From assembly GCA_964469495.1 (NCBI GenBank), contig CAYXYY010000030.1, positions 10,262 to 74,261 on the forward strand: a stretch of 64,000 nucleotides of DNA, read 5' to 3'. Shown piece by piece: positions 29,827 through 44,052 of this stretch; the stretch's first letter is position 1, and each line of letters opens with the position of its first letter. The DNA comes from an uncultured Planctomycetia bacterium. Its GTDB lineage: Bacteria > Omnitrophota > Gorgyraeia > S143-82. The translations under genes and the position numbers were made by a program. Below the pieces are notes generated by a model, which saw only the letters and a program-made list of their open reading frames with translations, was not told the DNA's origin and did no database searches.

Positions 29827-31041
29827 CTATAACTGGGCAAATACATTTCTCATCACAAGGCTAGATGCGCCTAATGCAACCGAATACTCACCTAACCTTG
29901 AAGGCACTATCCTCACCGCGGCTGCCATCTCATGAAACGCCCATGAATCCACTGTAGAGCGGATCTCATCCATTAATTCACTGCCCAATCTTTCTATCCC
30001 GCCGCCAATAATCAAGACCTGCGGATTAAGCAAATTCGTCAAAAATGCCGCCTTTAATCCAAGACACTTTGCCTTTTCTCTAATAACTTCCTTAACCAAA
30101 GCATCTCCTTTGGCAGCAGCCTCAATCACCTTATCAAAATCCAATTTATCCAAATCACCGCCCAAAGACTGAACAAGCGGACTTATATCGTCTCTCTTCT
30201 TTTTCAATCGTTTTTTCAACTCAGCAATAATACCTAAATCAGCAGGCACCCGGCTTGTAAAACAGGCCTCAGCAGGTGATTCCCCCTCATTGGCAATAGA
30301 AAGTTCTCCCGCGCTTCCTGTACTGCCGCGATAAAGTTCACCATTAAGTATTATACCACACCCAACGCCGGAGAACAAATATAACATATTCTCAACATCA
30401 GAATCCAGATAAAACCAGTACTCTCCAAAAGCAGAAACAGTGGCATCATTTTCAACTAAAACAGGCAGGCCAAAATCCCTTTCTATGTATTCTCTCAAAG
30501 GCACATAAATAGACACATAATCCAATTTATCGTCGCCAACCTTTTCCGGCCACTTTATCGTCCCTGCCTGACGGTTTACAACCCCTCCAATACCTATACC
30601 AATTCCCTTTATCTTAGACTTATCACCGTCAAACTGCCCCATAAGTTCGGACAAAATTTTCCTTATAGTTGAAAGGATATCCTTTATCCCCATTGTCTCA
30701 GGCTTTATCTTTATCTCGCTGAGTATCTGGCCGTCTATGTTCGTAATAACAGCAACCAGTGAATTCATATTCACGCCAACACCAATCGCATATGAGGCAT
30801 CGGCATTGAGATCCAATAGTACTGCCCGCCGTCCGCCCTGTGAAACGTCCAAATCCTTTTCAACAACCAAATCCGTATCTATGAAGTGATTGATATAGTT
30901 GGTCACTGTGACGACGTTAAGCCCGACCATATTAGAGATTTCCGCCTTGGTAAGAGGACCGGCCTTACGCAAACTCTCCAATATAGCTACGTTTCGTCTG
31001 GCTCTTTCGCTAAAACGAACGTTATCTTTTAGGCCCTCCAT
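29827..31041 (-). CDS. ROK-family transcriptional regulator (NagC/XylR-like).
   Basis: An N-terminal HTH (LTKAEISNMVGLNVVTVTNYINHFI) is followed by a ROK sugar-kinase-like fold with GIGIGIGGVV and a Cys/His zinc site. Confidence 0.8.
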   Translation of the reverse strand: MEGLKDNVRFSERARRNVAILESLRKAGPLTKAEISNMVGLNVVTVTNYINHFIDTDLVVEKDLDVSQGGRRAVLLDLNADASYAIGVGVNMNSLVAVITNIDGQILSEIKIKPETMGIKDILSTIRKILSELMGQFDGDKSKIKGIGIGIGGVVNRQAGTIKWPEKVGDDKLDYVSIYVPLREYIERDFGLPVLVENDATVSAFGEYWFYLDSDVENMLYLFSGVGCGIILNGELYRGSTGSAGELSIANEGESPAEACFTSRVPADLGIIAELKKRLKKKRDDISPLVQSLGGDLDKLDFDKVIEAAAKGDALVKEVIREKAKCLGLKAAFLTNLLNPQVLIIGGGIERLGSELMDEIRSTVDSWAFHEMAAAVRIVPSRLGEYSVALGASSLVMRNVFAQL

Positions 31042-31053
31042 CTTAACTCCTTT

Positions 31054-33753
31054 CTAAAACTGCTTTTCATACACTAATCTAAAAATATGCCTCGTATCCA
31101 ATGCGCTCATATGCCAGTAATCGCTGTCCGAATCATATCCGGCATATTCTCCCCACATCGCCTTTAGATATTCTTCTTCTGAGAAATTATATTTATATCC
31201 CACAAAAAAGTTGTTGTGAGACTCGTAATCCAAATTTCCTTCTATTTCATACTTATACACGTCGTATAAACGTGAATACGTATATGAGAAAAACATCTCT
31301 GCCTTTGGTCCGAGTTTATATAATGCCTCAAACCCAAAGTGACTGCCATTGTCGTCTATGCCCGGCATTGCATATTTATTCTGGTTCTTTGTAAAAGAAA
31401 ACGTAAGCTGTAAATCCTCTAACGGAGTTAAACCAGTCTTCATTTTTATTATATGATAATAATCATATGGGGGCAAGCCAAATATGCTCTGATCGTATAA
31501 AAAAGGAACAATTTTATCCCACATATAATCGCCTATTATTTCATCTGTGACATAAGTGCTGCACAAAAGTACCCTTGGGAAAACCATAGGGTCATTTGTC
31601 TCTTCAAAACCGAGTTCAAAATAGGCATTATCGTCGATATCATAACGGCCGGCTATACCAAAATGGCCGATAGAAGGATCCTTTCCCGCCTCTATTGCCG
31701 TGTTTTGCAAAGCCTCATTTTGCCCGCTGTAATAGTCGCTGATGTCATATAGGTTGTCCGCATAGATTAACGGGTCCTTATCAACCTCTGTATCAGGCAA
31801 TGCCTTATACCAAGCCAAGGCTTTCAATGTTAACTTATCAACAGGTGAAGCCGTTGCCTCTAATCTGCCAAGGGTCTCTATGGGAACGCCTCCATCACTA
31901 TGGACGTTTCTGACAAACACGTCCCAATTCGTATTCCATAAATCGAAATTCGCATATATCCCGGCAGCGGACCTGCCTCTGTCTATCCCATCGCCATAAG
32001 TCTCTATGCCTTTCTTGCGATTTTCTTCTTCGTCAAAGGTTATGTGCTTGCTCGCCTCTGTCTCTATCCTCGTATATCTATATGAGGAAAGTCCCGGTGA
32101 AAATTTATCTCCCATATAGTTATAGTAAAATTCTATTTTATTAATAGGCCAATGCAATGGTTGGAATTTTATTCCATATGCATAATCATCATAATACGTT
32201 TTCGTATCGTTGGCTTCATCAATTGTTGAAGAACTGTGGGCAACCTCACCTGATACCAAAACACCAAACAATTGTTTTGCCCCATCAATAGCCCACACAT
32301 AATTTTCAGCCTCAAGGTCATCACTGTCATTGAATCCCAGCTTTGAACTAAAAAAGGCTCCTATATAATCATTGGAATCGTCCTCAAAATAATATTTCCA
32401 ACGCGTTGCCCCGTCCAATGAATTGACATCTGAATAATCATCCCACAATGTCATAGGCAAGGCAATTGTGGCTTGCCCTTCAACAGAACCTTCTTTAATA
32501 GAAAAGCTGGCTCCCCTTAAATACGTAAGCCTTTCCCATTCACTATCACGAACGTATGCAGATATATTATGCTGCCATTTCCCTCCTTTAAGCGGATATC
32601 CAGGCCTTAAAAACCTACGGCTTGGGCTATACGTATCTATCCACGGGCTTTCTTCCCAATCTTTCCTATTATCAGAAAGCCGCATAAGATCGTCGCTCTT
32701 CAACGCCTCTTGCTGCGATGAAATCAGAAATACTTTGCCGCTAAATCCATCCGATTCATTTCCGTAATCAAACCATAGTTTTCTGATTATATTCCACCTC
32801 TCGTGGAGATCTTCCCCCCCAATTGTATTGAAATCAGTGTACCAATCATAAATACCCGTTGGAGTGTATGGAGAAAGTTTTCCATCAACTACCTTGATAT
32901 TGTTAAAAACCAATATATTGCCATATTTTGTCCTGAATGTTTCATTCATTGTCTGCCCGGTTGCAAAGAAATATTTCAATCTAACATTTGCTGAATCCAA
33001 ACCATTCGTACTTGTCACCTCGGCATCTATTGTGCCAACGTATGACCATGGGTCCAAAACTAATTGCGCATACAAATTTATCGCATCAGAAAAATCTGTA
33101 TCTATATTTAGTTCCAGTCTATCATAGACCTTTGGATCAAACGTATTTTCATGTTCTTCACCCCAGATATAGCGCCAGTTCTTCTCGTATGGAACAGCAT
33201 TCTTATCCGGATTGGCATCCTTCCATAGTATATCTCCGTCGGAATTCACCTCCCCTGCCAATCTGATCTTACCTGTTATATGGACATTAGAATCGGTTTT
33301 ATCCTCTGCAGACTCACTCGGCATGTGTGTTATAGGCGCAGGTTTTTTAGGAGATATTTCTGAAGGGCTTTGCATAACCTTATTCGATCCTGCAGCCAGT
33401 TTCTGTTCCATATACGCCTTCATTGCAAACCTGCCTGCGTTTTCTTCTTCATGCAAGGCCCTTTCCCCCTCTTCCAAACTCGCCAAAAAATCTGCCATTG
33501 CAACCTTTTTTTTCTGCTCCTCGCATAAGATTTCAACACCTTTTAGAGACACAATAACAGCCAATGCTTCTTTATTTTCCGGATCTTGATCTAATGCAGA
33601 TAATGCATCTTCATAGGCTGATTGATAGTCTTTCATGGCAAATTCCTCTTTGGCAAGTTGGGCATAATAACTTGCCTGACTAGCCCTTGCAATTCCCTGC
33701 GCCAAAAACGTTATCAATAAAAAAAATAATAAAACTCTTTCTATTCTAAACAC
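31054..33753 (-). CDS. Large secreted protein (899 aa) with an N-terminal TPR-like segment and an aromatic C-terminus. It is probably an outer-membrane beta-barrel.
   Basis: It has a signal peptide and ends ...RLVYEKQF. The C-terminal half is rich in Y/W/G/D, as in beta-barrels. It is the first gene of the glycan-utilisation-like cluster. Confidence 0.4.
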   Translation of the reverse strand: MFRIERVLLFFLLITFLAQGIARASQASYYAQLAKEEFAMKDYQSAYEDALSALDQDPENKEALAVIVSLKGVEILCEEQKKKVAMADFLASLEEGERALHEEENAGRFAMKAYMEQKLAAGSNKVMQSPSEISPKKPAPITHMPSESAEDKTDSNVHITGKIRLAGEVNSDGDILWKDANPDKNAVPYEKNWRYIWGEEHENTFDPKVYDRLELNIDTDFSDAINLYAQLVLDPWSYVGTIDAEVTSTNGLDSANVRLKYFFATGQTMNETFRTKYGNILVFNNIKVVDGKLSPYTPTGIYDWYTDFNTIGGEDLHERWNIIRKLWFDYGNESDGFSGKVFLISSQQEALKSDDLMRLSDNRKDWEESPWIDTYSPSRRFLRPGYPLKGGKWQHNISAYVRDSEWERLTYLRGASFSIKEGSVEGQATIALPMTLWDDYSDVNSLDGATRWKYYFEDDSNDYIGAFFSSKLGFNDSDDLEAENYVWAIDGAKQLFGVLVSGEVAHSSSTIDEANDTKTYYDDYAYGIKFQPLHWPINKIEFYYNYMGDKFSPGLSSYRYTRIETEASKHITFDEEENRKKGIETYGDGIDRGRSAAGIYANFDLWNTNWDVFVRNVHSDGGVPIETLGRLEATASPVDKLTLKALAWYKALPDTEVDKDPLIYADNLYDISDYYSGQNEALQNTAIEAGKDPSIGHFGIAGRYDIDDNAYFELGFEETNDPMVFPRVLLCSTYVTDEIIGDYMWDKIVPFLYDQSIFGLPPYDYYHIIKMKTGLTPLEDLQLTFSFTKNQNKYAMPGIDDNGSHFGFEALYKLGPKAEMFFSYTYSRLYDVYKYEIEGNLDYESHNNFFVGYKYNFSEEEYLKAMWGEYAGYDSDSDYWHMSALDTRHIFRLVYEKQF

Positions 33754-33778
33754 TACAATCCTCCTTTAAAATAACTAT

Positions 33779-35170
33779 TTATCCAGAGTGTTCTGTTAGT
33801 TCTTTAATCGAACTCTTTACGGCTAAACTCTGCAACTGGCTAGGAGTCTCTCCCTGCCAAAGCGCCTTTAGGACATAATAGGCCTTTTTAGGAATTCTCT
33901 TATTGATACCCTTCTCCCCTTTGCGTCTAGATATTCTAACTATGCCCCACCATTCCTCATTCATATTTAAATTTTTCGGAGCAGCTATATCATGATAATA
34001 GCCTCCACAAGACCAATCCCCTTTCATATCGTGCACCATCCAGGATTTTGGATTAAAATGGTCGCTCTTCCACCATTCATCCGTCCATTCAAAAACTATT
34101 CCTCCTAAAACGTTTCCCCATCCTTTATTCCCGGGCAAATTTTTGCTTATCTCTTTCCACAACTCGCCTATATATAAAGATTGGATGGCCTCATCTTCCC
34201 TTTTTTGGACAGCATCAAGACTGTCTGCCCCAAATTCCATTACAAAGAACGGCTTCTTCCACATATGATGCATATCTCTCCACACATGCCCGAAACTCTT
34301 CCCCAAAAACAGTGTCAATCCAGCGATATCAACGTTTTTACATTCATCCCCGGCTATATCCATAAAACGCGTTCCCCCATTTCCAAGGGCAACGACTCGG
34401 GAAGGATCCATTTGTTTAATCATACCTGCCAATTCATTGACAAAAGAATAATAAATCCTGGCTTTCTCTTCCCTGCGTTTCATGGGGTCCCGTTCCTTTA
34501 TCAATTCCGGTGTTGTCCAGACATTAACGTTTTCTGGACCAAAAGAAAAATTGTTTTCATTACCCAAAACCCACATAATAATGCCCGGTTCATCTTTTAA
34601 CTGCCTCACCATATTCAATACTTCCTGCTTTACATATGAACGGAATGTCCCATCAGCATAATTTGGACTGTTCCAAAAACCAAGCCAATTACCCATAATA
34701 GTATAGATACCGTATTCTTCATACATATACCTTATAAACTGCTTTGCGGCCTCTATATCCGGACTGAGGCAATAAAATCTTATCACGTTAGCCCCCATCT
34801 GCTTTATCAACGGCCCGTCAACATCCGCTAATCTTTTCCCCTGCTTAAAGAAATCAAATTCCCAATTCTTTCCCGGAGGTATTGGTTGATAGACAACTCC
34901 CTTTATAACAAAAGGCCTTCCATATACAGAGAGTATCTGCTGTCCATTATTTGTGGGCACGATTTCAGATATCTTACCCGCAACCTTGATTTCCTTTGTT
35001 GAGAAAGAATTATTATTTCCATTGGCAGATGCCTCAACAGACGCATTATTCAAGAACAAAACAAAACCCATCAAGAACATATAATAGAGTGAGGGGGCAA
35101 CAAGCCCCCTCACTAATACTCTCCAACAGGTCTTTCTATCTATGTGTTTATTCTTCAAAAACAACATCAT
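33779..35170 (-). CDS. Secreted clan GH-A TIM-barrel glycoside hydrolase (GH2/GH5-like catalytic domain only).
   Basis: It has a signal peptide. WVLGNENNF matches the GH-A acid/base motif (WSLGNE in GH2). It is a paralog of the 36412-38328 gene. Confidence 0.55.
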   Translation of the reverse strand: MMLFLKNKHIDRKTCWRVLVRGLVAPSLYYMFLMGFVLFLNNASVEASANGNNNSFSTKEIKVAGKISEIVPTNNGQQILSVYGRPFVIKGVVYQPIPPGKNWEFDFFKQGKRLADVDGPLIKQMGANVIRFYCLSPDIEAAKQFIRYMYEEYGIYTIMGNWLGFWNSPNYADGTFRSYVKQEVLNMVRQLKDEPGIIMWVLGNENNFSFGPENVNVWTTPELIKERDPMKRREEKARIYYSFVNELAGMIKQMDPSRVVALGNGGTRFMDIAGDECKNVDIAGLTLFLGKSFGHVWRDMHHMWKKPFFVMEFGADSLDAVQKREDEAIQSLYIGELWKEISKNLPGNKGWGNVLGGIVFEWTDEWWKSDHFNPKSWMVHDMKGDWSCGGYYHDIAAPKNLNMNEEWWGIVRISRRKGEKGINKRIPKKAYYVLKALWQGETPSQLQSLAVKSSIKELTEHSG

Positions 35171-36344
35171 CTAAATAAAACACGGCTCCTTCAGGATTGA
35201 CATCGGCATTTGTAACCCAGCAAAAACCGCCTATGATATAGGACATATCTTTCCCTGAAAGGTCTATCGTGTACTGCTTCCATTCAGTAGTTAACACTAT
35301 AGGACCTATATCTGCTGCATCTGAATCCGAATACTTGCCCTGAACACCTCCTACCTTGAACTGCTCAATCCTTTCTCCGCCTTTCTCTCCTCTTGCCCAA
35401 AACGTCAACTTCTTGGCCTTGCTAAGATCATATCCACCATCCAAAAGGCCCCAATTGTTTGCAGGATTAAGCCAATAAACACCAGCCCATCTTGCGCCTT
35501 GCGATGCCTTTGCTGTGTATTCAAAACGAATACAGGTATCACCGCTATGAGGATTCTCTTCAGATGCCTCATCCATCTTTATATCACCCCAGTCTCCCAT
35601 ATAACCGGATGGCACATAATGGTTATTAACAGACCTCTTGTCTGTATAAACAGCAAACGGCATAGGTTCTGCGCCTTTCAGGTTTGCCTTTAAGTCAGGA
35701 TCATACTCAAGTTTGATATCATCGAGGTAAAACGTACATCCGTCGGGATTCTGCCCCGCCTGCAAAATAAAAGCAAAACCGCCACTGATATAGCTCAAAT
35801 CCTTTCCAACGAGATTTATCGTATACTGCTGCCACTCATCACTAAGCTGTACAGGGCCAAAATCCACTTCCGTTGTATCTGCATAAGAACCCTTGATGCC
35901 TCCTACTATAAACTTAGCGATTATTTCATCTCCGTACTCTCCTCTTGCCCAGAAGGTCAATTTATTCATTGCAGATAAATCATAACCACCCTGCTTAGTT
36001 CCCCAGTTATTTGCGGGATTCTGCCAATAGACCCCAACCCAACCTTTCTTCTGACTTTTGTCAGCAGTATAAATAACCTGGATGCAGGTCTTGCCTTCTT
36101 TTACGTTTTCCGTGTATTCCTCATTCAAACGAACATCATTGTAATCGCCCATATAACCCGATGGGATATAGTGATTACCCGGAGCCCCTTTGTCGGAATA
36201 TATATAAAATAAATCCTTGTTGGAAACCTGAATTCCTTCCGTCTTTGCCGCGTGCGCCATTCCACAGGCAAAGAATACCCCTGCTAAGATGACTGCCCAA
36301 ATCCTGCGCATAACCATACCTCCTTTTTTAGACCTATAACACAA
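35148..36344 (-). CDS. Secreted protein made of two tandem ~190-aa repeats. It is probably a carbohydrate-binding protein.
   Basis: The internal duplication is obvious: ...NHYIPSGYMGDYNDVRLNE...GWVGVYWQNPANNWG...GGYDLS...KLTFWARGE versus ...NHYVPSGYMGDWGDIKMDE...RWAGVYWLNPANNWG...GGYDLS...KLTFWARGE. A signal peptide is present. The likely start is an internal Met near 36317. Confidence 0.5.
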   Translation of the reverse strand: MCYRSKKGGMVMRRIWAVILAGVFFACGMAHAAKTEGIQVSNKDLFYIYSDKGAPGNHYIPSGYMGDYNDVRLNEEYTENVKEGKTCIQVIYTADKSQKKGWVGVYWQNPANNWGTKQGGYDLSAMNKLTFWARGEYGDEIIAKFIVGGIKGSYADTTEVDFGPVQLSDEWQQYTINLVGKDLSYISGGFAFILQAGQNPDGCTFYLDDIKLEYDPDLKANLKGAEPMPFAVYTDKRSVNNHYVPSGYMGDWGDIKMDEASEENPHSGDTCIRFEYTAKASQGARWAGVYWLNPANNWGLLDGGYDLSKAKKLTFWARGEKGGERIEQFKVGGVQGKYSDSDAADIGPIVLTTEWKQYTIDLSGKDMSYIIGGFCWVTNADVNPEGAVFYLDDVVFEE

Positions 36345-36411
36345 TTTACCTTATTTTGCTATTTTACACAAATAATCCCTTTTAGTCAAATACTTTTAAA
36401 AAAAGTTTTAA

Positions 36412-38328
36412 TTAATCCATCCATGCTTTTCGTAAATATTCATATGCTTTTCTAACAACGCGCATAAAGGGACTATATTCAGGATCTCCCTGTCCTGTTA
36501 TTCCAAGCCACTCCTCATACATAAAACCATCCAAAAACGGCCCAGCCCATCTGGTTTCCGTATTATGTTTAAACGGCTCATATGCCTTCCACCATTCATC
36601 CGTCCATTCAAATGCAAAACCACCAATAGAATTGCCAACGCCCCAATCGTAATCAGCAGAATTGTAAAGTATATCCTCCCAACAACCGAGGTAATACATG
36701 GCCTGACCTTCTTCCGCGGCCTCAACAGACAGGCCCTTGCCATAAGCAGGACACCCGTACTCTGTTATCATAGCCGCTTTATCAGGAGCCAAGACAAAAA
36801 CCTTTTCCCAGATGTCTCCAAAACCGGCATTCCCGCGATATGCGTTCATCCCAACAATATCAACATCCGGGCAATACTTGGCCAGTTTATCCAAAAACAG
36901 CACATCGCCATTACATATGGCAACCGGCCTTGTGGGATCTATTTTTTTTATCATCTTCGCCACCTCATTTACGAATTTATAATATGCATCCGGTTTTTCT
37001 TTTGCATTATTAGCAACGCCATAGTTGTTTTCATTGCCCAAAAGCCAAAACAATACATACGGTTCATCCTTAAATTGCTCGACCAATTCTTTTACGTGAC
37101 GCTTCATATTCTCCTGCTGTTTTTTATTCGTATAATCCGTTCCCTCTTCCCATGTAGCTCCACTGCCTATGGTATACATACCAAGGAAATCACTCATAAC
37201 AAAACGTATGCCAAAACGCTCGTACATATCTTTTAATAATATCTTGTTTAATTTTTCTTCCGGCAGACGATATATCCTAAGGGTATTAGCGCCCATCTCT
37301 TTAAGCAGGCTTAAATCGCCCACTGCCGACTCATCTTTGTCCTGCTTTCCGTTTCTGTTCCAGTCAATCCACGCGTCATACGGCCCGTCGATTAATCCGT
37401 TTTTATTATAGTCATAAAACATCCAGTTGCGCATCGTACCGTCATCCGGACTCTGACCTATCTTTGTGGTAGCATATGTAATCCCCTTGATTATATACGG
37501 CTTGCCATCAACCAATAACTGCCACGAGCCGTCTTTGTACTTTACAAGCTGCGTGTTTTTGCCTCCCTTTTTCTCAACTATATCTTTTAGTCCATGTTTC
37601 CTTTTGTGAGGCAAGACATCATCTTCACTTTCAACGTGTACTATCTTGCCCGGCCATACAACAACTTGGTCATTTAAGATGTTATTATCTTCTCCATTCT
37701 TTATAATTATTTTGGCATCAACCAGTTTCATCTTTAATTCAGGATATCTCCTTGTCAAATACCTTATCCGATGCAGAGAGGCAGGCCCTATATACCAAGG
37801 GGTATGCCAATAGGTCCAGCCATTTGCATAGGGGAAATGTATCACTATAGAATAATAGGCCTTTATTGCGTGCTTTATCAGGCCTGCTTCCTCTAAAATA
37901 GTTGCTATGTAAAACTGTCTTACGCCCGGCGGTTCAGGGGCAGAACACCATTTATAAAAATTTGCAAGCAAGTCCCTGCCATGAACAAAATCCCAATGAT
38001 TGCCCTTTAATAATCCCTGTTTTTTATATTCTATATACTTGGGATCCCAACGAAAACTCGTGGAGTTCGGGTAAATACCTTCTCCTGTTGCATTGGCAAG
38101 GCCCTCCTGATCCTTTACAACGTATTTATACTGAGCAGTTCCCACATTCTGAAATTCTCCATACTTTTCATAATCCACTATGTCTTCCTTGCCGTAGTTA
38201 TAAAGAGAAAACGCGGGAGAAGGCAATGGATTGGTATAAGGAAGGAATGTTTCTCTTTTTGCGCATGCAGAAGAGACCATTAATAAAAAACACATGCCTA
38301 TGCAGATTAATGATCTCGATCTATTCAT
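36412..38328 (-). CDS. Secreted clan GH-A TIM-barrel glycoside hydrolase (638 aa). It is a paralog of 33779-35170 with an additional N-terminal domain.
   Basis: It has a signal peptide and the motifs WLLGNENNYG and ITEYGCPAYG. The C-terminus (EEWLGITG) is shared with its paralog. Confidence 0.55.
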   Translation of the reverse strand: MNRSRSLICIGMCFLLMVSSACAKRETFLPYTNPLPSPAFSLYNYGKEDIVDYEKYGEFQNVGTAQYKYVVKDQEGLANATGEGIYPNSTSFRWDPKYIEYKKQGLLKGNHWDFVHGRDLLANFYKWCSAPEPPGVRQFYIATILEEAGLIKHAIKAYYSIVIHFPYANGWTYWHTPWYIGPASLHRIRYLTRRYPELKMKLVDAKIIIKNGEDNNILNDQVVVWPGKIVHVESEDDVLPHKRKHGLKDIVEKKGGKNTQLVKYKDGSWQLLVDGKPYIIKGITYATTKIGQSPDDGTMRNWMFYDYNKNGLIDGPYDAWIDWNRNGKQDKDESAVGDLSLLKEMGANTLRIYRLPEEKLNKILLKDMYERFGIRFVMSDFLGMYTIGSGATWEEGTDYTNKKQQENMKRHVKELVEQFKDEPYVLFWLLGNENNYGVANNAKEKPDAYYKFVNEVAKMIKKIDPTRPVAICNGDVLFLDKLAKYCPDVDIVGMNAYRGNAGFGDIWEKVFVLAPDKAAMITEYGCPAYGKGLSVEAAEEGQAMYYLGCWEDILYNSADYDWGVGNSIGGFAFEWTDEWWKAYEPFKHNTETRWAGPFLDGFMYEEWLGITGQGDPEYSPFMRVVRKAYEYLRKAWMD

Positions 38329-38914
38329 TATTACACTCCTTTTCTAACTGCTTTAATTTGGCGGAGGCCTCTTCTTTGATGCTCCAATACCAGCCGCGGG
38401 GGTCCCAATTCTGAGACAATGGAAATTTTTCTATAGCAGACTCATAATTTGATTTTGCATTATCACAGTCCCCCATCTTTTGATAACTTTCTGCTTTTAC
38501 GTAATACGACGCGCCGACAGCGTTTAACTCTTTATACTTAAGTTCATCCCCTGCCTTTGGAAAGTGTCCATGTAAGGCCTTTTGCTGACTCAATGCATTA
38601 GATTCAAACCGCTTTATACAGATATCCGCCAGTTTTATAGCGTCTTCATATGCCCTGGCGCCCAAAGCGGCCCATGCCTTTTGTATTACCTTTTCTGCGG
38701 GGGCTTCATCCATTTCCTTCCAATCAACGTCTATGTGCACAGTCTTATCCGTGGTATCTTCCGTAATTAATATATCTTTAGGAAAGACAGGGGCGCCCTT
38801 GCTTGCCGGCTTTAACGTAAGCCTAAACCCCTCTTCTTTATTTTCATCACATCCTGATATAAAAAACACAGAACAAAACAAAGACACTGACAAAAAAATT
38901 GCCCAGATATTCAT
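38321..38914 (-). CDS. Lipoprotein with a TPR-like repeat.
   Basis: The lipobox FISGC follows a signal peptide. A helical hairpin-repeat region (AYEDAIKLADICI...YYVKAESYQKMGDCDNAKSNYESAI) follows. The start is taken at the internal Met. Confidence 0.45.
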   Translation of the reverse strand: MNIWAIFLSVSLFCSVFFISGCDENKEEGFRLTLKPASKGAPVFPKDILITEDTTDKTVHIDVDWKEMDEAPAEKVIQKAWAALGARAYEDAIKLADICIKRFESNALSQQKALHGHFPKAGDELKYKELNAVGASYYVKAESYQKMGDCDNAKSNYESAIEKFPLSQNWDPRGWYWSIKEEASAKLKQLEKECNNE

Positions 38915-38930
38915 AAGTCCTCTCTTTCTG

Positions 38931-39770
38931 TTATTGGCCTGTGAGGGCACCGGCTGTAATACCTTTTATAATGTGCCTCTGCATCAGCAGATAAACTATT
39001 ATCACGGGGACAACCGTGATAGTCATACCTGCCATCAACAATGGATAGTTGACAAGGTGGGCGCCCTGAAACACCATAAGGCCTCTTGGCAAAGGCATCT
39101 TCGCCTTGTCCTGTAATATCAACATAGCGAGCAGATATTCATTCCACACCGCCAAGGTATTAAATATGATAACAACAGCCAAAGCAGGCATTGCCAAAGG
39201 AATAGCGACATGTCTCCATATACCAAGTTTGGAACATCCGTCTATCCTTGCCGCATCTTCCAACTCCCTTGGCAATTTATCGAAAAAGGTTTTTAACAAA
39301 AATATAGCAAATGGCAATCCCATATTTATTTGCGGCAATATATAACCTATTCGCGTATTCACCAGTCCCAAGTTCTTTAAGAGAACAAACAATGCGATAA
39401 ACGCGCCGGGAATAGGGATCATCATCGTTGCAATCAATATGATATAAAGCGCGCCTTTAAAAGGAAACTCCAATCTAGAAAAGGCAAAAGCGGCCAATGA
39501 GGATAGAATAACAATAAAAAAGACCACAACAAAGGTATAAAATAAACTATTTAAGAAAAATTGGCCAAATCCTCCCTGCGTCCAGGCCAATGCGAAATTT
39601 TCCCAACGCGGAGAGATAGGGAACAAACTCATATCCGTAAAAATACCATATTGACTTTTTAAAGAAGAGGTAAACATCCAGTAAAGGGGAAATAAACAAG
39701 AAAGGGCCACAGCGGAAAGGACCGTATAGATACCGATATAACCCAATACCTTTTTTACCTTATACCACAC
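38931..39770 (-). CDS. Carbohydrate ABC transporter permease (MalG-like).
   Basis: 279 aa with six TM segments. An EAA-loop-like DAARIDGCSKLGIWRHVAIP motif is present. Confidence 0.85.
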   Translation of the reverse strand: MWYKVKKVLGYIGIYTVLSAVALSCLFPLYWMFTSSLKSQYGIFTDMSLFPISPRWENFALAWTQGGFGQFFLNSLFYTFVVVFFIVILSSLAAFAFSRLEFPFKGALYIILIATMMIPIPGAFIALFVLLKNLGLVNTRIGYILPQINMGLPFAIFLLKTFFDKLPRELEDAARIDGCSKLGIWRHVAIPLAMPALAVVIIFNTLAVWNEYLLAMLILQDKAKMPLPRGLMVFQGAHLVNYPLLMAGMTITVVPVIIVYLLMQRHIIKGITAGALTGQ

Positions 39771-39774
39771 AATC

Positions 39775-40746
39775 TCACTCCTGTTTCATCTTTTTGGAAA
39801 CCCACAACTGAAACATTGACACGCTCAACAACAACACCCCAAAGACTATACCTTGGGCGCATGCATATCCAAATCTGCCAGCGCCCTGCATAGACGCCAA
39901 AATCCTCGTTACAGGAACCTCAGTGTGATATGACGGGCCGCCATTTGTCGTCGCCGCAATAATGTCGTAAATCTGCATACTTCCCAAGATAGTCAGAATA
40001 GAGACCAAAATAAATACAGGTATCATCAACGGCACTGTAATGTATATAAACCTGTGCCATGCATTGGCGCCATCCACTCTTGCCGCCTCGTAAATCTGAT
40101 GTGGGATATTCTGCAGACCCGCCAATAATATAACGAATCCCCATCCAAATCCACGCCACATGTGCACAACTGCAACGGCATTTAAGGCCGTTGCGGGATT
40201 CGAAAGCCAGTCCCTAACCAAGTGCTGCATACCCATTTTTACCAATGCGAAATTTAAAATCCCGTCAGGATACCTGAAAATCCATTTCCAGATAAGACCG
40301 ATAACAATACCTGATAATACCGGGGGCAGATAGAATATAACCCTATACACATGGCCTCCCCTGATATCCTTTGCGCACATAAGGGCCAAAATCAAGGCCA
40401 CGCCATTTTGTATCGTCAATGCCAAGAACGTAATCCACGAGGCATTTAGCACAGACGCCCACCAAACCTTATCGTGCAATACTTCAATAAAGTTCTGCAT
40501 TCCGACAAAGGTCATGTGTTTTGAAAGCCCGTCCCATGCCATTGTGGAAAGCTGAAACACCTTAAAAAATGGATACAGGCCAAAGACAATAAACAATATA
40601 AACGCGGGAAGCACAAATAAATAGTTAGTCAAGATATTGGGATCCTTAAAGGACTTCTTTAAATATTCGAGATTTTCTTTTGCATCATTTATATACTTAC
40701 GTACAAGCGCATTTATCTTTTCATTGCTCTTATCTACAAATGCCAT
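39775..40746 (-). CDS. Carbohydrate ABC transporter permease (MalF-like).
   Basis: EAARVDGANAWHRFIYITVPL EAA motif. 323 aa. Confidence 0.85.
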   Translation of the reverse strand: MAFVDKSNEKINALVRKYINDAKENLEYLKKSFKDPNILTNYLFVLPAFILFIVFGLYPFFKVFQLSTMAWDGLSKHMTFVGMQNFIEVLHDKVWWASVLNASWITFLALTIQNGVALILALMCAKDIRGGHVYRVIFYLPPVLSGIVIGLIWKWIFRYPDGILNFALVKMGMQHLVRDWLSNPATALNAVAVVHMWRGFGWGFVILLAGLQNIPHQIYEAARVDGANAWHRFIYITVPLMIPVFILVSILTILGSMQIYDIIAATTNGGPSYHTEVPVTRILASMQGAGRFGYACAQGIVFGVLLLSVSMFQLWVSKKMKQE

Positions 40747-40797
40747 TGCATTACGCTCCTTTTAATTATTGGCCATAAAAACACCTGCCAATAACAA

Positions 40798-42117
40798 TTA
40801 TTTCTGTTTTTCCATCTGTTTTTTCTTCAACTTATCCAGTTCTTCAGCAACCTGCTGAGGAGTCTTTTCCTGTATAATAATGGCCTGTAAGCCTTTACTA
40901 AACGCCTCTTGCACAACAGGATCTTCCTGAACAGGGAAGGTATCCGGATGATAAGCATACTTCATTGCCTCCAAAAAACCCTTAACCTTATCAGGGACAA
41001 GATCTATGCAATTCTTATTTGCCGGTATGTTTTTCGTTTCAATAGCCCATTCCTTTTGCTGTTCAGGCATTGTAAGCCACTTCAAAAACTCAACAGCCAA
41101 ATCCTTTTTTGAGGATTTCGCATTGACAACGAGTCTCGTGCCTGCCCCTCCCCAGATTCCAACTGGATTGGCATTCGACACCTTTGGGGGAAGCATAACC
41201 CCATAGTCAAGAGGTTTGGCAGCCTCTTTTGTCATTTCATCATAAACATTAACCGCCCAGGAACCATTAAACGCCAATGCAGCCCTTCCAAGGGAAAAAT
41301 TCAATTCTGCCTCTTTATTGGACAAAATAACTATACCACTTGCAAAAAGGCCCTTTTTAGCAAGTTGATCAAACAAAGAAAATACCTTTATCCAATCCGG
41401 ATCCGTATAAGAAACCTCTCCTCTGTAAGTCGCCAGCATCTTGTTTTCACCCATAATATTCCAGGCAAAATTAGATGCAAGACAACTGGCAAGCCACGGC
41501 TCACCAAATCCGCTTATAAGATAATCAACACCTGTTGCCTTTACCTTTTCTCCGGCTTTCACAAACTCTTCCCACGTAACAGGCGGATTGTCAGGATCAA
41601 TGCCCGCCTTTTTAAATATATCCTTATTATAGATAAACTGGATAGTGACCACGTCCAACGGCACCTCATAAATGCCGGCAGGAACCTTGAACTCATTGCC
41701 TTCGGAAAAAGAAACGGAATTAATCGCCTGCCTAAAAAACTGTTTTTTCCACTCGGAATCGTTCTTTTTCATTTCAGCTGACAATGGCATTACATGTCCG
41801 GACTTTATAAAATTGGCCTTATCTCTTTTACTTCCCAAAATACCATAGATCTCCGGCAAGGTATCCGTTTGAGCAGATGCCATAATCTTTTGTTTATATG
41901 CCTCGGAAGGAGAAAAAAGCTCCATCTTTACGTATATGCCTGTTTTTTCATAGTATTTTTTGGAAAGTTTTTCTAAAACATCTTGCCTGTCGGAGAGCCA
42001 GTGCCACATGGTAAGTTGTTTTTCAGGCGGGACATCTATCTTATCCTTTTTTACAGCGCACCCTGAAATCAAAACCGCTGCGAAAATACCTATCATCAAT
42101 CCCATTATTCGGCGCAT
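40798..42117 (-). CDS. Extracellular solute-binding protein of a sugar ABC importer. It is a lipoprotein.
   Basis: The lipobox LISGC follows a signal peptide. The 439-aa family-1 SBP size and pattern fit. Confidence 0.8.
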   Translation of the reverse strand: MRRIMGLMIGIFAAVLISGCAVKKDKIDVPPEKQLTMWHWLSDRQDVLEKLSKKYYEKTGIYVKMELFSPSEAYKQKIMASAQTDTLPEIYGILGSKRDKANFIKSGHVMPLSAEMKKNDSEWKKQFFRQAINSVSFSEGNEFKVPAGIYEVPLDVVTIQFIYNKDIFKKAGIDPDNPPVTWEEFVKAGEKVKATGVDYLISGFGEPWLASCLASNFAWNIMGENKMLATYRGEVSYTDPDWIKVFSLFDQLAKKGLFASGIVILSNKEAELNFSLGRAALAFNGSWAVNVYDEMTKEAAKPLDYGVMLPPKVSNANPVGIWGGAGTRLVVNAKSSKKDLAVEFLKWLTMPEQQKEWAIETKNIPANKNCIDLVPDKVKGFLEAMKYAYHPDTFPVQEDPVVQEAFSKGLQAIIIQEKTPQQVAEELDKLKKKQMEKQK

Positions 42118-42174
42118 AATGCCTCCTTTGTGCTAACATGCGGATTAATAATTTACCAAGTCAACGCCAGTCTG

Positions 42175-44052
42175 TCAAGCAGTCGCCAAATTAAAAGGCG
42201 AAACCTCTTTTCCCTTTTCCTCCATAAAAGTCTTTAGGCGTTTTTCTTGTTCATCAAATGCCTCGAATACAATATCCGGTGTTTTATTTTCTTTGTCAGA
42301 ATATATTCCCCTCATTCTATCCAATTTAGCCAGCCAATTTTCCACGTTGATGGTAAATTGCCGCTCATAATCCTTTTCAGTATAATCTATATTCAGAACC
42401 TTCGCAAAAAGCGATTTCAAGTCTTCGTACAATGGAATCATACCAATAGGGGTTTCTATTGCCCCTGCCTCATCATACACCCTTTTCTCCATCCACTTCA
42501 GCCACACGCGTTTATGGTGCATACCGGTCAGATATTTTCCGTCTTTTTTCTGGAAATAGTTCACGCCAAAGACCTTTGGGACGTCATTTACATCCTTAAC
42601 GAACTCCAAGTAATTTGCAATATACACGCCTATGGGTATAGACAAGAAGTCAAGATTTGCCATAGGGTTAAACTTCCGCACACCCTGCTTGCCCAAAGTC
42701 GCTGCTGTTGTCTCTGATTCCAGACAAGAGGCCATTGTAATAATCCCATGCGCCCAATCAAAGCTCTCAAACACAGGCACCCAAGTATCAGAATCCCTTC
42801 CACCAAAAATAAGTCCGCTGAGTTTAACGCCTTCAGGGTTTTCAAGCAGTTCATTATCACAATTCTTTAAATAAGAAAGTCTGATGGTATATCTTGCATT
42901 CGGATGAGAATAAGGGATCTCATTACCGGCATCATCTTTCTTGCCCTTGCGCCAGTGCCCGGCAAAGTTCTCTCCCTCTTCAGGAATCGGCCGACCATCA
43001 CCCTGCCAATAAGGCTGCCCATTGTTTATCAATACGTTTGAAAATATAACCTCGCGAGGAGAAGTCAACACGTCCCAAATCACAGGGTCGTCCTTTGGGT
43101 TTACGTCTTTAATAATACCGAAAATGCCCCTCTCTACGTTAACGGCATACACCGACCCGTTCTTTTTTCTCAAATAAGATATATCATCGCCTAAAACCGT
43201 CTCGCCCTCAACCATACACGTTGACGTCTTTCCGCAAGCGCTGGGAAAAGCGCCGGAAAAGAATGTCCTCCTCTGTTTGTCTTTATTATTGACCGCCATA
43301 AGAAACATATGCTCTGCAAGCCATCCCTCTCTGCTAGCCTTGTTTATAGCAAGGCGCAAGGCCAGTTTCTTCATTCCCACAGTATTTCCGGCGTACTGAG
43401 AATTAGCAGTATATACAATTTCATCTTCCAAATCTATATAAACCCTTCTCTTATCTATGTCCACGCTATTGCCTCTATCATCTAACCTTCCAGCTGAATG
43501 GACAAATCTAAAAAATTTCAAAGAATCCTGCTGCTTAATTGCATCATATGCCGGCCTATACAAGATATCCTCCGAATGGGCAACATAAGCGGAATCCGTA
43601 ATCTGCACTGCATATAAGGAGAAATCACCTCCAACAGGCCCGAGTCCTAAAAACAGGACATACATCTCTTTGCCTTTCATAGAATCCTTAAGCAAACCGC
43701 AAATCTCTTTTACGCCTTCCTCTTTATCAATAACATTCAGGGACTTTGGCAAATCCATATTCGGAGAAACCAAAAATTTTGTGTTAGCCTTATCCCTTGC
43801 CTGATCCTTTGGCCCATCAAAATGCACAGTATGGCCTTCTGTTTTTAATGGCCTCTCTTCTTTATTGGCAATGGCTTTGTTTCGAATATATTCAATATCC
43901 TCTTTAGAGTCAGTTCTGACAAAAATAGAATCAGGATTACACAGCAAAGCAACTTCATCGATAAAATCCAGAATACGCTTATCCTTTACTCCATTCAATG
44001 CCTGAAAACTTTTTTCAGAACACAGTCTTTGCAAGATCGTATAGCCTGCCAT
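42175..44052 (-). CDS. pckG: Phosphoenolpyruvate carboxykinase (GTP).
   Basis: FPSACGKTS kinase-1a P-loop and overall GTP-PEPCK similarity. 625 aa. Confidence 0.9.
   Translation of the reverse strand: MAGYTILQRLCSEKSFQALNGVKDKRILDFIDEVALLCNPDSIFVRTDSKEDIEYIRNKAIANKEERPLKTEGHTVHFDGPKDQARDKANTKFLVSPNMDLPKSLNVIDKEEGVKEICGLLKDSMKGKEMYVLFLGLGPVGGDFSLYAVQITDSAYVAHSEDILYRPAYDAIKQQDSLKFFRFVHSAGRLDDRGNSVDIDKRRVYIDLEDEIVYTANSQYAGNTVGMKKLALRLAINKASREGWLAEHMFLMAVNNKDKQRRTFFSGAFPSACGKTSTCMVEGETVLGDDISYLRKKNGSVYAVNVERGIFGIIKDVNPKDDPVIWDVLTSPREVIFSNVLINNGQPYWQGDGRPIPEEGENFAGHWRKGKKDDAGNEIPYSHPNARYTIRLSYLKNCDNELLENPEGVKLSGLIFGGRDSDTWVPVFESFDWAHGIITMASCLESETTAATLGKQGVRKFNPMANLDFLSIPIGVYIANYLEFVKDVNDVPKVFGVNYFQKKDGKYLTGMHHKRVWLKWMEKRVYDEAGAIETPIGMIPLYEDLKSLFAKVLNIDYTEKDYERQFTINVENWLAKLDRMRGIYSDKENKTPDIVFEAFDEQEKRLKTFMEEKGKEVSPFNLATA

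What the first reader, a model, noticed from the sequence alone, without database searches (positions are those of the whole stretch)
31054..42117. Polysaccharide-utilisation-like locus with paralogous clan GH-A hydrolases, a tandem-repeat putative CBM protein and an 899-aa secreted beta-barrel-like protein
Nine co-oriented genes sit under a ROK regulator. There are two secreted TIM-barrel hydrolases sharing WxLGNENN and identical C-terminal motifs; they are paralogues. Between them is a secreted protein made of two ~190-aa repeats with conserved aromatic clusters (GVYWxNPANNWG, KLTFWARGE). This is typical of carbohydrate-binding modules, but I cannot assign it to a CBM family. A TPR lipoprotein and an 899-aa signal-peptide protein ending in Phe are also present. 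The latter is possibly an outer-membrane glycan-capture or pore protein. A MalEFG-type importer completes the set, but the ATPase is absent from the locus. The substrate is unknown. The repeat protein may be an undescribed binding module.
Basis: partly seen in the sequence, partly recalled or inferred. Interest (0 to 1): 0.5.

Follow-up and report, generated by a model that had tools for sequence, protein, structure and literature searches.

The report
Conserved Omnitrophota beta-glucan harvesting gene cluster
This is a real sugar-polymer harvesting gene cluster, conserved across the uncultured phylum Omnitrophota, whose most conserved and apparently most strongly expressed product is a secreted double carbohydrate-binding-type protein of an uncharacterised family that other bacteria attach to beta-1,3-glucan enzymes.

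Summary
On the minus strand lie an ABC sugar importer (lipoprotein binding protein plus two permeases), a TPR lipoprotein, two paralogous clan GH-A hydrolases, a tandem-repeat secreted protein (REP), an 899-aa outer-membrane barrel and a ROK regulator.

- **Distribution:** the window is from Omnitrophota. The order importer / TPR+hydrolase / REP / hydrolase / variable gene / ROK recurs in nearly all 80 related genomes fetched. REP relatives were confirmed at 596 places in species-representative genomes.
- **Hydrolases:** they keep both catalytic glutamates. Their nearest solved relatives are GH158 beta-1,3-glucanases, but only the beta4-beta8 part aligns, and there is no room for the GH158 Ig domain.
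- **REP:** it folds (pLDDT 86.8) into two beta-sandwiches closest to CBM30, CBM11, CBM8 and CBM4. The same module is fused to GH17 catalytic domains in 16 of 58 multidomain relatives.
- **REP expression:** REP is the best-conserved product. A GGAGG ribosome-binding site precedes it in 94% of loci and a strong 3' hairpin follows it in 85%.
- **Barrel:** it is clade-specific. Most genomes carry a ~540-aa TPR-like protein in that slot.

Most likely function: capture, cleavage and import of a beta-glucan, probably beta-1,3-linked. The substrate is inferred, not shown. I rate it a new variant of a known kind, of moderate interest.

The parts
42150..42178 (-). Sigma-70-like promoter candidate (TTGACA-17-TAAATT, with TG) in the 57-bp PEPCK-SBP spacer
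   Evidence: A consensus match only. The number of such sites in the region is not above the shuffled expectation.
40798..42117 (-). Solute-binding lipoprotein of a CUT1 sugar ABC importer (lipobox LISGC)
   Evidence: Pfam SBP_bac_8 8.9e-37 and SBP_bac_1 5.2e-32. The N-terminus was read. The closest solved relatives are oligosaccharide binders (chito-oligosaccharide NagB1 1.4e-24, xylo-oligosaccharide 1.4e-18), so specificity cannot be inferred.
39775..40746 (-). ABC permease, MalF/UgpA-like
   Evidence: BPD_transp_1 5.3e-17. NCBIfam UgpA, GlcT and MalF hits are all below their cut-offs.
38931..39770 (-). ABC permease, MalG/UgpE-like
   Evidence: BPD_transp_1 1.2e-16. NCBIfam UgpE, GlcU and MalG hits are below their cut-offs.
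38321..38950 (-). TPR-like lipoprotein (lipobox FFISGC). It corresponds to the N-terminal domain of the large hydrolase in most other Omnitrophota.
   Evidence: Weak TPR_6 hit, 24.8 bits against a cut-off of 26.3. In most of the 66 full-length orthologues this domain and the hydrolase form one ~770-aa ORF. In the window the two ORFs overlap by 8 nt.
36412..38328 (-). GH638: lipoprotein hydrolase (lipobox VSSAC). It has an N-terminal helical region of unknown function and a clan GH-A TIM barrel. Acid/base is E433 (GNEN) and nucleophile is E523 (TEYG).
   Evidence: GH2_C 5.3e-11. Best solved relatives are GH158 9oro 1.5e-17 and 6pal 2.4e-12. The family profile gives 2.6e-15 and 5.6e-15. Both Glu are invariant in 30 orthologues.
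36319..36389 (-). REP expression signals: promoter-like TTGACT-17-TAAAAT (36389-36361) and the AGGAGG ribosome-binding site 7 nt before the ATG at 36311
   Evidence: GGAGG lies near the REP start in 94% of 47 loci, against 0-19% for SBP, permG and ROK. The promoter-like pair is seen in only 7 of 63 spacers.
35148..36311 (-). REP: secreted 387-aa protein made of two ~170-aa CBM-like beta-sandwich modules. Signature motifs are PSGxMGD, WxGxYWxxPxNNWG, FWARG and NPxGxxFYLDD.
35088..35114 (-). Strong stem-loop 34 nt downstream of the REP stop codon (11 bp, 8 G-C)
   Evidence: The 81-nt region folds at -29.4 kcal/mol, z = -4.1. A hairpin of at least -15 kcal/mol follows REP in 85% of 79 loci (median -25.6). 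After the other cluster genes the figure is 9-19% (median -6 to -10).
33779..35170 (-). GH463: secreted or anchored clan GH-A hydrolase, paralogue of GH638. Acid/base is E205 (GNEN) and nucleophile is E312 (MEFG). The start codon is uncertain.
   Evidence: GH2_C 2.7e-06, 27.2 bits. GH158 9oro 1.3e-05 for the single sequence. The family profile gives 6pal 1.8e-11 and 9oro 3.3e-11. 31% identity to GH638. Motifs. Invariant Glu in 30 orthologues. Many homologues carry a precomputed Pfam GH72 hit.
31054..33753 (-). OMP899: signal peptide, TPR and long helix, then a large beta-barrel ending in Phe. Clade-specific accessory of the cluster.
29827..31041 (-). ROK-family protein with an N-terminal winged HTH (NagC/Mlc-like regulator)
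   Evidence: ROK 1e-37, HTH_24 5.7e-05. NagC 2.6e-38 and glucokinase family 1.8e-39, both below their cut-offs. Conserved 3' of the cluster in most loci with enough flank.
28554..29786 (-). Coiled-coil membrane-anchored protein that follows ROK in most loci. Its link to the cluster is unknown.
   Evidence: Only coiled-coil Pfam noise. A syntenic homologue (about 26% identity) follows ROK in most loci.

Best explanation
The cluster is a cell-envelope machine, conserved across Omnitrophota, that captures, cleaves and imports an extracellular beta-glucan, most probably one with beta-1,3 linkages (laminarin, curdlan or mixed-linkage type).

Proposed steps:
1. Two retaining clan GH-A glucanases related to GH158 cut the polymer into oligosaccharides. 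One is a lipoprotein that normally carries a TPR domain; here that domain is split off as its own lipoprotein. The other is secreted or anchored by its signal sequence.
2. REP, a secreted protein of two CBM-like beta-sandwich modules, is made in excess. It has a strong ribosome-binding site and a protective or terminating 3' hairpin. It binds the glycan chains and holds them at the envelope.
3. In this clade a large outer-membrane barrel encoded next to the enzymes lets the glycan or its fragments cross the outer membrane.
4. A lipoprotein binding protein and two permeases import the oligosaccharides. They are powered by an ATPase encoded elsewhere.
5. A NagC/Mlc-like ROK protein controls expression.

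Shown here: the gene content, paralogy, folds, catalytic residues, synteny, and the expression signals around REP.

Inferred: the substrate, the location of each protein, the excess of REP, the role of the barrel, and the regulation.
For: Gene content and domains.

Both hydrolases keep the clan GH-A Asn-Glu acid/base and the Glu nucleophile. These align with the catalytic residues of GH158. The residues are E143/E229 in PMC13195107 and N136/E137/E220 in PMC7157763.

GH158 is the best solved relative, at E 1e-11 to 1e-17. GH2 enzymes score 1e-9 (GH638 family) or 4e-6 (GH463 family). Characterised GH158 enzymes are beta-1,3-glucanases. Pfam GH72 (beta-1,3-glucanosyltransferase) is passed by an orthologue (27.4 against 25.9) and is precomputed for many homologues.

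REP folds as two CBM-type beta-sandwiches. The same module, with the same signature residues, is fused to GH17 catalytic domains in 16 of 58 multidomain relatives scanned. One of those GH17 domains matches a solved beta-1,3-glucanosyltransferase at 2.9e-33.

Synteny holds across nearly all 80 loci. REP relatives were confirmed at 596 places in species-representative genomes.

REP is the most conserved product, with median identity 61%, against 47% for the binding protein and 46-56% for the hydrolases. GGAGG precedes it in 94% of loci and a strong hairpin follows it in 85%.

The binding protein's nearest solved relatives bind oligosaccharides.

The literature notes sugar transport plus glycolysis in most Gorgyraia and Velamenicoccia genomes (PMC10066038). 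It also notes binding proteins, permeases and glycosyl hydrolases downstream of Omnitrophota giant genes (10.1101/2023.11.21.568195).
Against: - No biochemical data exist for any member.
- Similarity to GH158 covers only about beta4-beta8 of the barrel. The GH158 Ig-like domain appears to be absent. Clan GH-A similarity alone does not fix specificity.
- The window holds no cytoplasmic beta-glucosidase or beta-1,3-oligoglucan phosphorylase that could finish the pathway.
- The binding protein's closest solved relatives bind chito-oligosaccharides, and the regulator is NagC-like. Both would fit an amino-sugar glycan as well.
- A phylum found in groundwater, sediments and reactors has no obvious universal source of beta-1,3-glucan.
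- The barrel is absent from the cluster in most genomes.
- The promoter-like element before REP is not conserved: 7 of 63 spacers.
Confidence: 0.55

Rival explanations
1. The machine is the same, but its target is a cell-surface or matrix polysaccharide of the host or prey cell. The cluster would then be part of the predatory or parasitic feeding apparatus of Omnitrophota. The glycan need not be a beta-1,3-glucan.
For: West-Roberts et al. report binding proteins, permeases and glycosyl hydrolases downstream of most giant genes and link them to prey cell-wall degradation. A 2026 preprint finds GH2-annotated enzymes as the most recurrent catalytic flanks of giant-protein loci. Conservation across the phylum fits a core lifestyle trait. 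The binding protein and ROK resemble chito-oligosaccharide and NagC systems.
Against: No giant gene lies in this 64-kb window; the largest ORF is 1494 aa, a FliD. Hosts of different Omnitrophota are diverse, so one conserved glycan target is hard to name. The two independent lines that point to beta-1,3-glucan (GH158/GH72 similarity and GH17 fusion partners) do not point to envelope amino-sugar polymers.
Confidence: 0.22
2. The cluster remodels and recycles a glucan made by the bacterium itself, in the periplasm or at the surface. The GH72/GH17-like enzymes would act as transglycosylases. REP would be an abundant structural glycan-binding component of the envelope. The importer would recover released fragments.
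For: The cluster is conserved across the phylum, and REP is conserved more strongly than the transporter. REP has high-expression signals typical of structural proteins. GH72 and many GH17 enzymes are transglycosylases (Pfam descriptions). The window neighbours are envelope-biogenesis genes: a lipid A acyltransferase-GT2 fusion, an MGDG-synthase-like GT, a heptosyltransferase and rhamnose synthesis genes.
Against: No glucan synthase (processive GT2 of the CrdS or NdvB type) was identified in the cluster or in any of the 80 loci. A catabolic-type ROK repressor and an oligosaccharide importer are typical of nutrient acquisition. No such polymer is known in Omnitrophota.
Confidence: 0.13
3. REP is not a glycan binder. 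It is a beta-sandwich adhesin or lattice protein, and its position among the hydrolases is a matter of co-expression only.
Against: The top structural matches are all CBMs. The commonest catalytic partner of the module is GH17, followed by co-occurring CBM11, CBM30 and CBM4_9 modules. The invariant residues are rich in Trp, Tyr, Asn and Gln, as in CBM binding clefts. REP sits between two glycosidases in nearly every locus.
Confidence: 0.07

Closest known systems
Bacteroides beta(1,3)-glucan utilisation loci with BuGH158 and surface glycan-binding proteins (Dejean et al. 2020, PMC7157763)
   Same: A GH158-type retaining clan GH-A enzyme is predicted to be a lipoprotein. Non-catalytic all-beta glycan-binding proteins are encoded beside the enzymes. 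An outer-membrane barrel, an importer and a regulator lie in one co-oriented cluster.
   Different: There is no SusC/SusD pair and no TonB-dependent plug. Import is by a binding-protein-dependent ABC system. The regulator is ROK, not a hybrid two-component system. The cluster has no GH16 or GH3. The enzymes lack room for the GH158 Ig-like domain. REP is not a SusE/F-type protein.
GH158(Pro), a processive beta-1,3-glucanase (PDB 9ORO and others; PMC13195107)
   Same: It is the best solved sequence relative of GH638 (E 1.5e-17). The acid/base and nucleophile Glu align.
   Different: Only about 135 residues align, from beta4 to just past the beta7 nucleophile. GH638 has a ~330-residue N-terminal extension and no C-terminal Ig-like domain. 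Residues that form the processive tunnel could not be mapped.
ABC-transporter-based glycan utilisation loci (CUT1 family, MalEFG/MsmEFG type) with a shared ATPase, as in Gram-positive bacteria and Thermotogae (own knowledge)
   Same: A lipoprotein binding protein plus two permeases sit beside secreted glycosidases and a repressor. The ATPase is encoded elsewhere.
   Different: The organism appears to be diderm: the window has an LPS heptosyltransferase, a lipid A acyltransferase and an OMP with a C-terminal Phe. An outer-membrane step is therefore needed. The locus is conserved across a phylum instead of being strain-variable.
CBM11, CBM30, CBM8 and CBM4: type B beta-sandwich carbohydrate-binding modules for beta-glucans
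   Different: Identity is 15-20%. The window protein hits no Pfam CBM model. Here the module occurs as a free-standing tandem pair instead of an appendage of an enzyme. Its ligand is unknown.
The malE-malF intercistronic hairpin of E. coli, which stabilises the upstream message so that the binding protein is made in excess (own knowledge; Newbury et al. 1987)
   Same: A strong stem-loop directly after the gene for a binding component, inside a co-oriented transport cluster, conserved in position but not in sequence.
   Different: Here it follows the CBM-like protein, not the transporter's binding protein. In some loci it has a T-run and looks like a true terminator (L002, L003). Its effect on expression is untested.
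Large outer-membrane barrels: chaperone-usher ushers (FimD/PapC), TonB-dependent receptors/SusC, and Deinococcus SlpA
   Same: A very large predicted barrel with a C-terminal Phe, plus an N-terminal periplasmic helical part as in SlpA-type proteins.

Membership tests
CAZy GH158 | Clan GH-A (beta/alpha)8 barrel with an Asn-Glu acid/base after beta4 and a Glu nucleophile after beta7 | tested here: met
   GNE433N and TE523YG in GH638, GNE205N and ME312FG in GH463. They align to the GH158 catalytic Glu residues and are invariant in 30 orthologues of each.
CAZy GH158 | Family-level sequence similarity over the whole catalytic domain (CAZy/dbCAN assignment) | tested here: inconclusive
   GH158 chains are the top PDB hits (E 1.5e-17 and 2.4e-12 for GH638; profiles 2.6e-15 and 1.8e-11). 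The alignments cover only about 80-180 residues. dbCAN was not available.
CAZy GH158 | C-terminal eight-stranded Ig-like domain packed on alpha7/alpha8 (PMC7157763, PMC13195107) | tested here: not met
   After the EWTDEWWK motif only 57 residues remain in GH638 and 95 in GH463, and these must also hold helix alpha8.
CAZy GH158 | [quoted passage not shown] | not testable with these tools
   Needs enzyme assays.
CAZy GH2 | N-terminal sugar-binding jelly-roll and Ig-like domains preceding the TIM barrel | tested here: not met
   Only Glyco_hydro_2_C is hit. There is no Glyco_hydro_2_N or Glyco_hydro_2. All NCBIfam beta-glucuronidase and beta-galactosidase hits fall far below their cut-offs.
CAZy GH72 (Pfam PF03198) | Score above the Pfam gathering cut-off (25.9 bits) | tested here: not met
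   The window proteins score 23.3 and 18.9 bits. One fused orthologue reaches 27.4, and many homologues carry a precomputed PF03198 hit. The relation is real but marginal.
Carbohydrate-binding module (generic, type B beta-sandwich) | Beta-jelly-roll fold resembling known CBMs | tested here: met
Carbohydrate-binding module (generic, type B beta-sandwich) | Occurs appended to carbohydrate-active catalytic modules | tested here: met
   16 of 58 multidomain relatives carry GH17 and 1 carries GH26. The P0205 GH17 domain matches 4wtp at 2.9e-33. The signature residues are shared.
Carbohydrate-binding module (generic, type B beta-sandwich) | Demonstrated carbohydrate binding | not testable with these tools
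   Needs affinity gels, ITC or glycan arrays.
Pfam CBM30 / CBM_11 | Score above the gathering cut-off | tested here: not met
   The window protein has no hit. CBM30 is reached by relatives P0193 (31.4) and P0207 (28.3). At E <= 1e-5, CBM30 and CBM_11 are each hit in two further relatives.
NCBIfam NF038128, choice-of-anchor J domain | Score above the curated cut-off (30 bits) | tested here: met
   39.7 bits, E 5.5e-10, residues 277-395 of the 398-aa ORF, which is the second repeat.
CUT1 (MalEFG-type) ABC importer | Family-1 solute-binding protein plus two BPD_transp_1 permeases | tested here: met
CUT1 (MalEFG-type) ABC importer | MalK/MsiK-type ATPase | tested here: not met
   None in the locus or the window. 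The only LSGGQ/Walker A gene, at about 13000-13400, belongs to another small ABC system. A shared ATPase elsewhere in the genome is assumed.
Bacteroidota polysaccharide utilisation locus (strict sense) | Adjacent SusC-like TonB-dependent transporter and SusD-like lipoprotein | tested here: not met
ROK-family transcriptional regulator (NagC/Mlc/XylR type) | ROK domain preceded by a winged helix-turn-helix | tested here: met
   ROK 1e-37 and HTH_24 5.7e-05. The N-terminal phosphate-1 region reads AIGVGVN instead of the DxGxT of ROK kinases. That reading is from the sequence and is my inference.
Outer-membrane beta-barrel protein | Signal peptide, transmembrane beta-barrel and C-terminal aromatic residue | tested here: met

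The most novel reading that the evidence does not exclude
The REP-centred cluster is the core carbohydrate-feeding interface of the whole host-dependent phylum Omnitrophota. REP would found a new, widespread carbohydrate-binding module family (3027 representative clusters), specific either for beta-1,3-glucan or for a host-surface glycan not yet identified. It would be produced in excess as a free glycan-trapping protein. The two hydrolases would form a new clan GH-A family, or a deep GH158 subfamily lacking the Ig domain.
Probability: 0.25. Interest if true: 0.65.

Novelty: new variant of a known kind. Interest (0 to 1): 0.45.

Why it matters
Omnitrophota are abundant, uncultured, mostly ultra-small bacteria thought to depend on hosts. 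What they eat is largely inferred from generic 'sugar transport plus glycolysis' annotations. This cluster is conserved across the phylum and gives a concrete, testable candidate for their main carbohydrate source. It offers three soluble proteins (REP and two hydrolases) that can be expressed and assayed without cultivating the organism. The REP module is also a large uncharacterised family that recurs on GH17 enzymes in other organisms. Defining its ligand would annotate thousands of proteins and could add a CBM family. If the outcome is ordinary, the locus is simply one more ABC-type beta-glucan utilisation locus.

Tried and rejected
- **AlphaFold database fold library:** afdb50 was not available for the barrel. 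PDB Foldseek gave only generic barrel matches.
- **V. archaeovorus proteomics paper:** Kizina et al. 2022 (10.1128/aem.02407-21, PMC9004380) is not held. I could not check whether the REP orthologue is abundant in that proteome.
- **Source organisms of the GH17-REP fusions:** the cluster look-up returned no names or taxonomy.
- **PF26410:** it is precomputed for several GH463 homologues but did not appear in the local Pfam scan.
- **Binding-protein specificity:** it could not be inferred. The top solved relatives bind chito-, xylo- and other oligosaccharides at similar low identity.
- **A conserved sigma-70 promoter before REP:** not supported, 7 of 63 spacers. Promoter-like and terminator-like counts in the region are not above shuffled expectation.
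- **Riboswitches or other regulatory RNAs in the cluster:** none. Rfam finds only a 6S RNA and a tRNA elsewhere in the window.
- **The TPR/GH638 split as a sequencing frameshift:** rejected. GH638 has its own signal peptide and lipobox, and three other genomes (L002-L004) have the same 635-637-aa form.
- **The barrel as a TonB-dependent or SusC transporter:** rejected. There is no plug or TonB Pfam hit, and TM-scores are low.
- **The ~540-aa TPR-like protein of other loci:** no homologue in this window.

Full report
**1. What is in the sequence**

Every ORF of 250 aa or more across the region is on the minus strand. GC skew is strongly negative across the whole window. In order of transcription the genes are:
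- a lipoprotein solute-binding protein (42117-40798)
- two ABC permeases (40746-39775 and 39770-38931)
- a 209-aa TPR-like lipoprotein (38950-38321)
- a 638-aa hydrolase, GH638 (38328-36412)
- the repeat protein, REP (36311-35148)
- a 463-aa hydrolase, GH463 (35170-33779)
- an 899-aa protein, OMP899 (33753-31054)
- a ROK protein with an N-terminal winged helix-turn-helix (31041-29827)

Pfam and NCBIfam confirm the transporter, ROK and TIM-barrel assignments. They find nothing for OMP899. For REP the only above-cut-off match is the NCBIfam 'choice-of-anchor J' domain on the second repeat; Pfam gives just a weak below-cut-off hit (PF15911, 18.1 bits).

- The REP halves are 56% identical (E 2e-72).
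- The hydrolases are 31% identical (E 7e-48).
- Both hydrolases contain GNEN and EWTDEWWK.

No MalK-type ATPase is in the window.

**2. Origin and conservation**

REP has 4720 database homologues at E <= 0.001. The best 120 are 55-100% identical to it. Wherever a source gives a name, it is Omnitrophota or a taxon commonly confused with it in bins.

In the 80 loci fetched, the order is binding protein, permease, permease, TPR domain, large hydrolase, REP, small hydrolase, one variable gene, ROK, coiled-coil protein. This order is kept wherever the contig is long enough.

Median identities to the window proteins:

| Protein | Median identity |
|---|---|
| REP | 61% |
| Permease (MalG-like) | 60% |
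| Permease (MalF-like) | 56% |
| GH638 | 56% |
| Binding protein | 47% |
| GH463 | 46% |
| ROK | 44% |

REP is therefore the most constrained product of the cluster.

Two features are specific to the window's clade (the window plus L002-L004):
- **TPR/GH638 split.** In most of the 66 full-length orthologues, the TPR domain and the large hydrolase form a single ORF of about 770 aa. Here they are two lipoproteins whose genes overlap by 8 nt. GH638 has acquired its own signal peptide and lipobox.
- **The variable slot.** About 40 of 46 informative loci hold a secreted ~540-aa TPR-like protein there. That protein has no homologue in this window. An OMP899 homologue occupies the slot in the window and in L003 and L004; the L002 contig ends before it. 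One locus (L074) has both. An OMP899 homologue lies somewhere within 10 kb of REP in 8 of 80 loci.

**3. The hydrolases**

GH158 chains are the best solved relatives by single-sequence and by profile search. GH2 enzymes follow at 1e-9 (GH638 family) or 4e-6 (GH463 family).

| Query | 9ORO (GH158) | 6PAL (GH158) |
|---|---|---|
| GH638, single sequence | 1.5e-17 | 2.4e-12 |
| GH638 family profile | 2.6e-15 | 5.6e-15 |
| GH463 family profile | 3.3e-11 | 1.8e-11 |

The alignments place E433 and E523 of GH638, and E205 and E312 of GH463, on the catalytic acid/base and nucleophile. Those residues were defined experimentally in BuGH158 (N136, E137, E220; PMC7157763). They were inferred structurally in GH158(Pro) (E143, E229; PMC13195107). 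These residues are invariant in 30 orthologues of each paralogue.

Characterised GH158 enzymes are retaining beta-1,3-glucanases. Pfam GH72, a beta-1,3-glucanosyltransferase family, is just below cut-off for the window proteins. It is above cut-off for a fused orthologue and is precomputed for many homologues.

Arguments against filing the two enzymes as GH158:
- Only the beta4-beta8 part aligns.
- The sequence after the EWTDEWWK motif is too short (57 and 95 residues) to hold the Ig-like domain that both solved GH158 structures have.

I call them GH158-related clan GH-A enzymes. Public annotations are inconsistent: 'hypothetical protein', 'GH2 TIM barrel-domain containing protein', 'beta-galactosidase/beta-glucuronidase' and 'endo-1,4-beta-mannosidase' all occur.

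**4. The repeat protein**

A profile search of 1.84 billion representatives finds 3027 clusters at E <= 0.001 and 768 at E <= 1e-30. Their architectures include one-module proteins of about 230 aa, tandem pairs, and proteins with up to six matched stretches.

I scanned 58 multidomain relatives with Pfam:
- 16 carry a GH17 domain.
- 1 carries GH26.
- A few carry CBM11, CBM30 or CBM4_9.
- The rest carry Ig, PKD, fn3 or beta-helix modules, or nothing recognisable.

One fusion, P0205, has a full GH17 domain that matches a solved beta-1,3-glucanosyltransferase at 2.9e-33. Its two REP-type modules share the window protein's signature residues.

So the module behaves as CBMs do. Its preferred catalytic partner is a beta-1,3-glucan-active family. 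This line of evidence points to the same substrate as the hydrolase similarity, and it is independent of it.

**5. Expression signals around REP**

- REP is preceded by a spacer of 100 nt in the window and a median of 111 nt elsewhere.
- In the window that spacer carries a promoter-like TTGACT-17-TAAAAT and an AGGAGG 7 nt before the ATG.
- GGAGG lies near the REP start in 94% of 47 loci. For the binding protein, a permease and ROK the figure is 0-19%.
- A stem-loop lies 34 nt after the stop codon. The region folds at -29.4 kcal/mol, z = -4.1.
- A hairpin of at least -15 kcal/mol follows REP in 85% of 79 loci, with a median of -25.6. After the other cluster genes the figure is 9-19%, with medians of -6 to -10.
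- The hairpin sequences differ between loci. Some have a T-run and look like true terminators (L002, L003).
- The promoter-like pair is not conserved: 7 of 63 spacers.

I infer that REP is made in excess over its neighbours. That is expected for a stoichiometric binder, and it resembles the malE-malF arrangement of E. coli (own knowledge).

**6. The barrel**

It is therefore a large outer-membrane barrel of no solved family, with no sign of a plug or a TonB box. A role as the outer-membrane passage for glycan or fragments is plausible. That role rests only on its position in the cluster.

**7. Mechanism and rivals**

The best-supported reading is capture, cleavage and import of a beta-glucan, probably beta-1,3-linked, under ROK control. 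My confidence is 0.55 for the machine as described and somewhat lower for the specific linkage.

Weak points:
- The window holds no cytoplasmic beta-glucosidase or phosphorylase.
- The binding protein and regulator have a chito-oligosaccharide/NagC flavour.
- There is no obvious universal source of beta-1,3-glucan for this phylum.

Rivals:
- The same machine aimed at host or prey surface glycans, as the literature suggests for genes downstream of giant genes.
- Remodelling and recycling of a glucan made by the cell itself.
- A non-glycan adhesin role for REP.

**8. Novelty**

The logic of the locus is well known: glycosidases, a binding module, an ABC importer and a repressor. The cluster has been mentioned in passing as 'solute binding proteins, transporters and glycosyl hydrolases' near giant genes and as 'GH2' flanks.

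As far as I could find, these points are new:
- the phylum-wide synteny
- the GH158 relation, with the catalytic residues placed
- recognition of REP as a CBM-type module family that recurs on GH17 enzymes
- REP's dedicated high-expression signals
- the two clade-specific rearrangements

I rate it a new variant of a known kind, interest 0.45.

Noticed in passing
window 35088-35114 (-), and the equivalent position in L002-L081: A strong stem-loop directly after the REP stop codon is conserved in position but not in sequence: 85% of 79 loci, median -25.6 kcal/mol. After the other cluster genes the figure is 9-19%.
   Followed up: yes
window 38321-38328; L012:7468-9852 and other loci: In most Omnitrophota the TPR lipoprotein and the large hydrolase are one ~770-aa ORF. 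In the window's clade they are split into two lipoproteins with an 8-nt gene overlap.
   Followed up: yes
L012:12440-14170 and about 40 other loci: A secreted ~540-aa TPR-like protein of unknown function normally fills the slot between the small hydrolase and ROK. This window lacks it, and the 899-aa barrel sits there instead.
   Followed up: partly
window 28554-29786 (-): A 410-aa membrane-anchored coiled-coil protein with a small C-terminal beta domain follows ROK in most loci (about 26% identity). Its function is unknown. In the window it abuts a PilC/T2SS-F gene (27479-28552).
   Followed up: partly
window 26213-26366 (-): A 6S RNA (Rfam RF00013, 57.1 bits) overlaps the 5' end of the mechanically listed radical-SAM ORF (25131-26261). 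The true start of that ORF is probably further downstream.
   Followed up: no
window 53735-53807 (+): A tRNA on the plus strand, in a window where all 34 plausible protein genes of at least 250 aa are on the minus strand. GC skew is -0.10 to -0.31 throughout.
   Followed up: no
window 55827-60311 (-): An unusually long FliD filament-cap protein (1494 aa) with a galactose-binding-like insert. A flagellin gene (60838-62265) and a Maf-type flagellin glycosyltransferase (51765-53672) lie nearby.
   Followed up: no
window 909-3311 (-): A GH57 plus DUF3536 protein (800 aa), probably alpha-glucan/glycogen-related (own knowledge). This is carbohydrate metabolism separate from the cluster.
   Followed up: no
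window 44140-45684 (-): A single ORF fuses a lipid A biosynthesis acyltransferase domain to a GT2 glycosyltransferase. An MGDG-synthase-like GT28 lies just upstream of it (45686-46798). PEP carboxykinase (42175-44052) lies directly upstream of the cluster in this genome only.
   Followed up: no
P0189 (1745 aa), P0202 (2442 aa), P0217 (2917 aa): Very large proteins from unknown organisms carry up to six stretches that match the REP module. The module is therefore also used in giant multi-repeat surface proteins.
   Followed up: partly
window 33779-35170 (-): The start codon of the small hydrolase is ambiguous. ATG 35170 overlaps REP by 23 nt and reads through the hairpin. GTG 35113 sits at the base of the hairpin. 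ATG 35080 lies after the hairpin but leaves a signal peptide with no charged N-region.
   Followed up: partly
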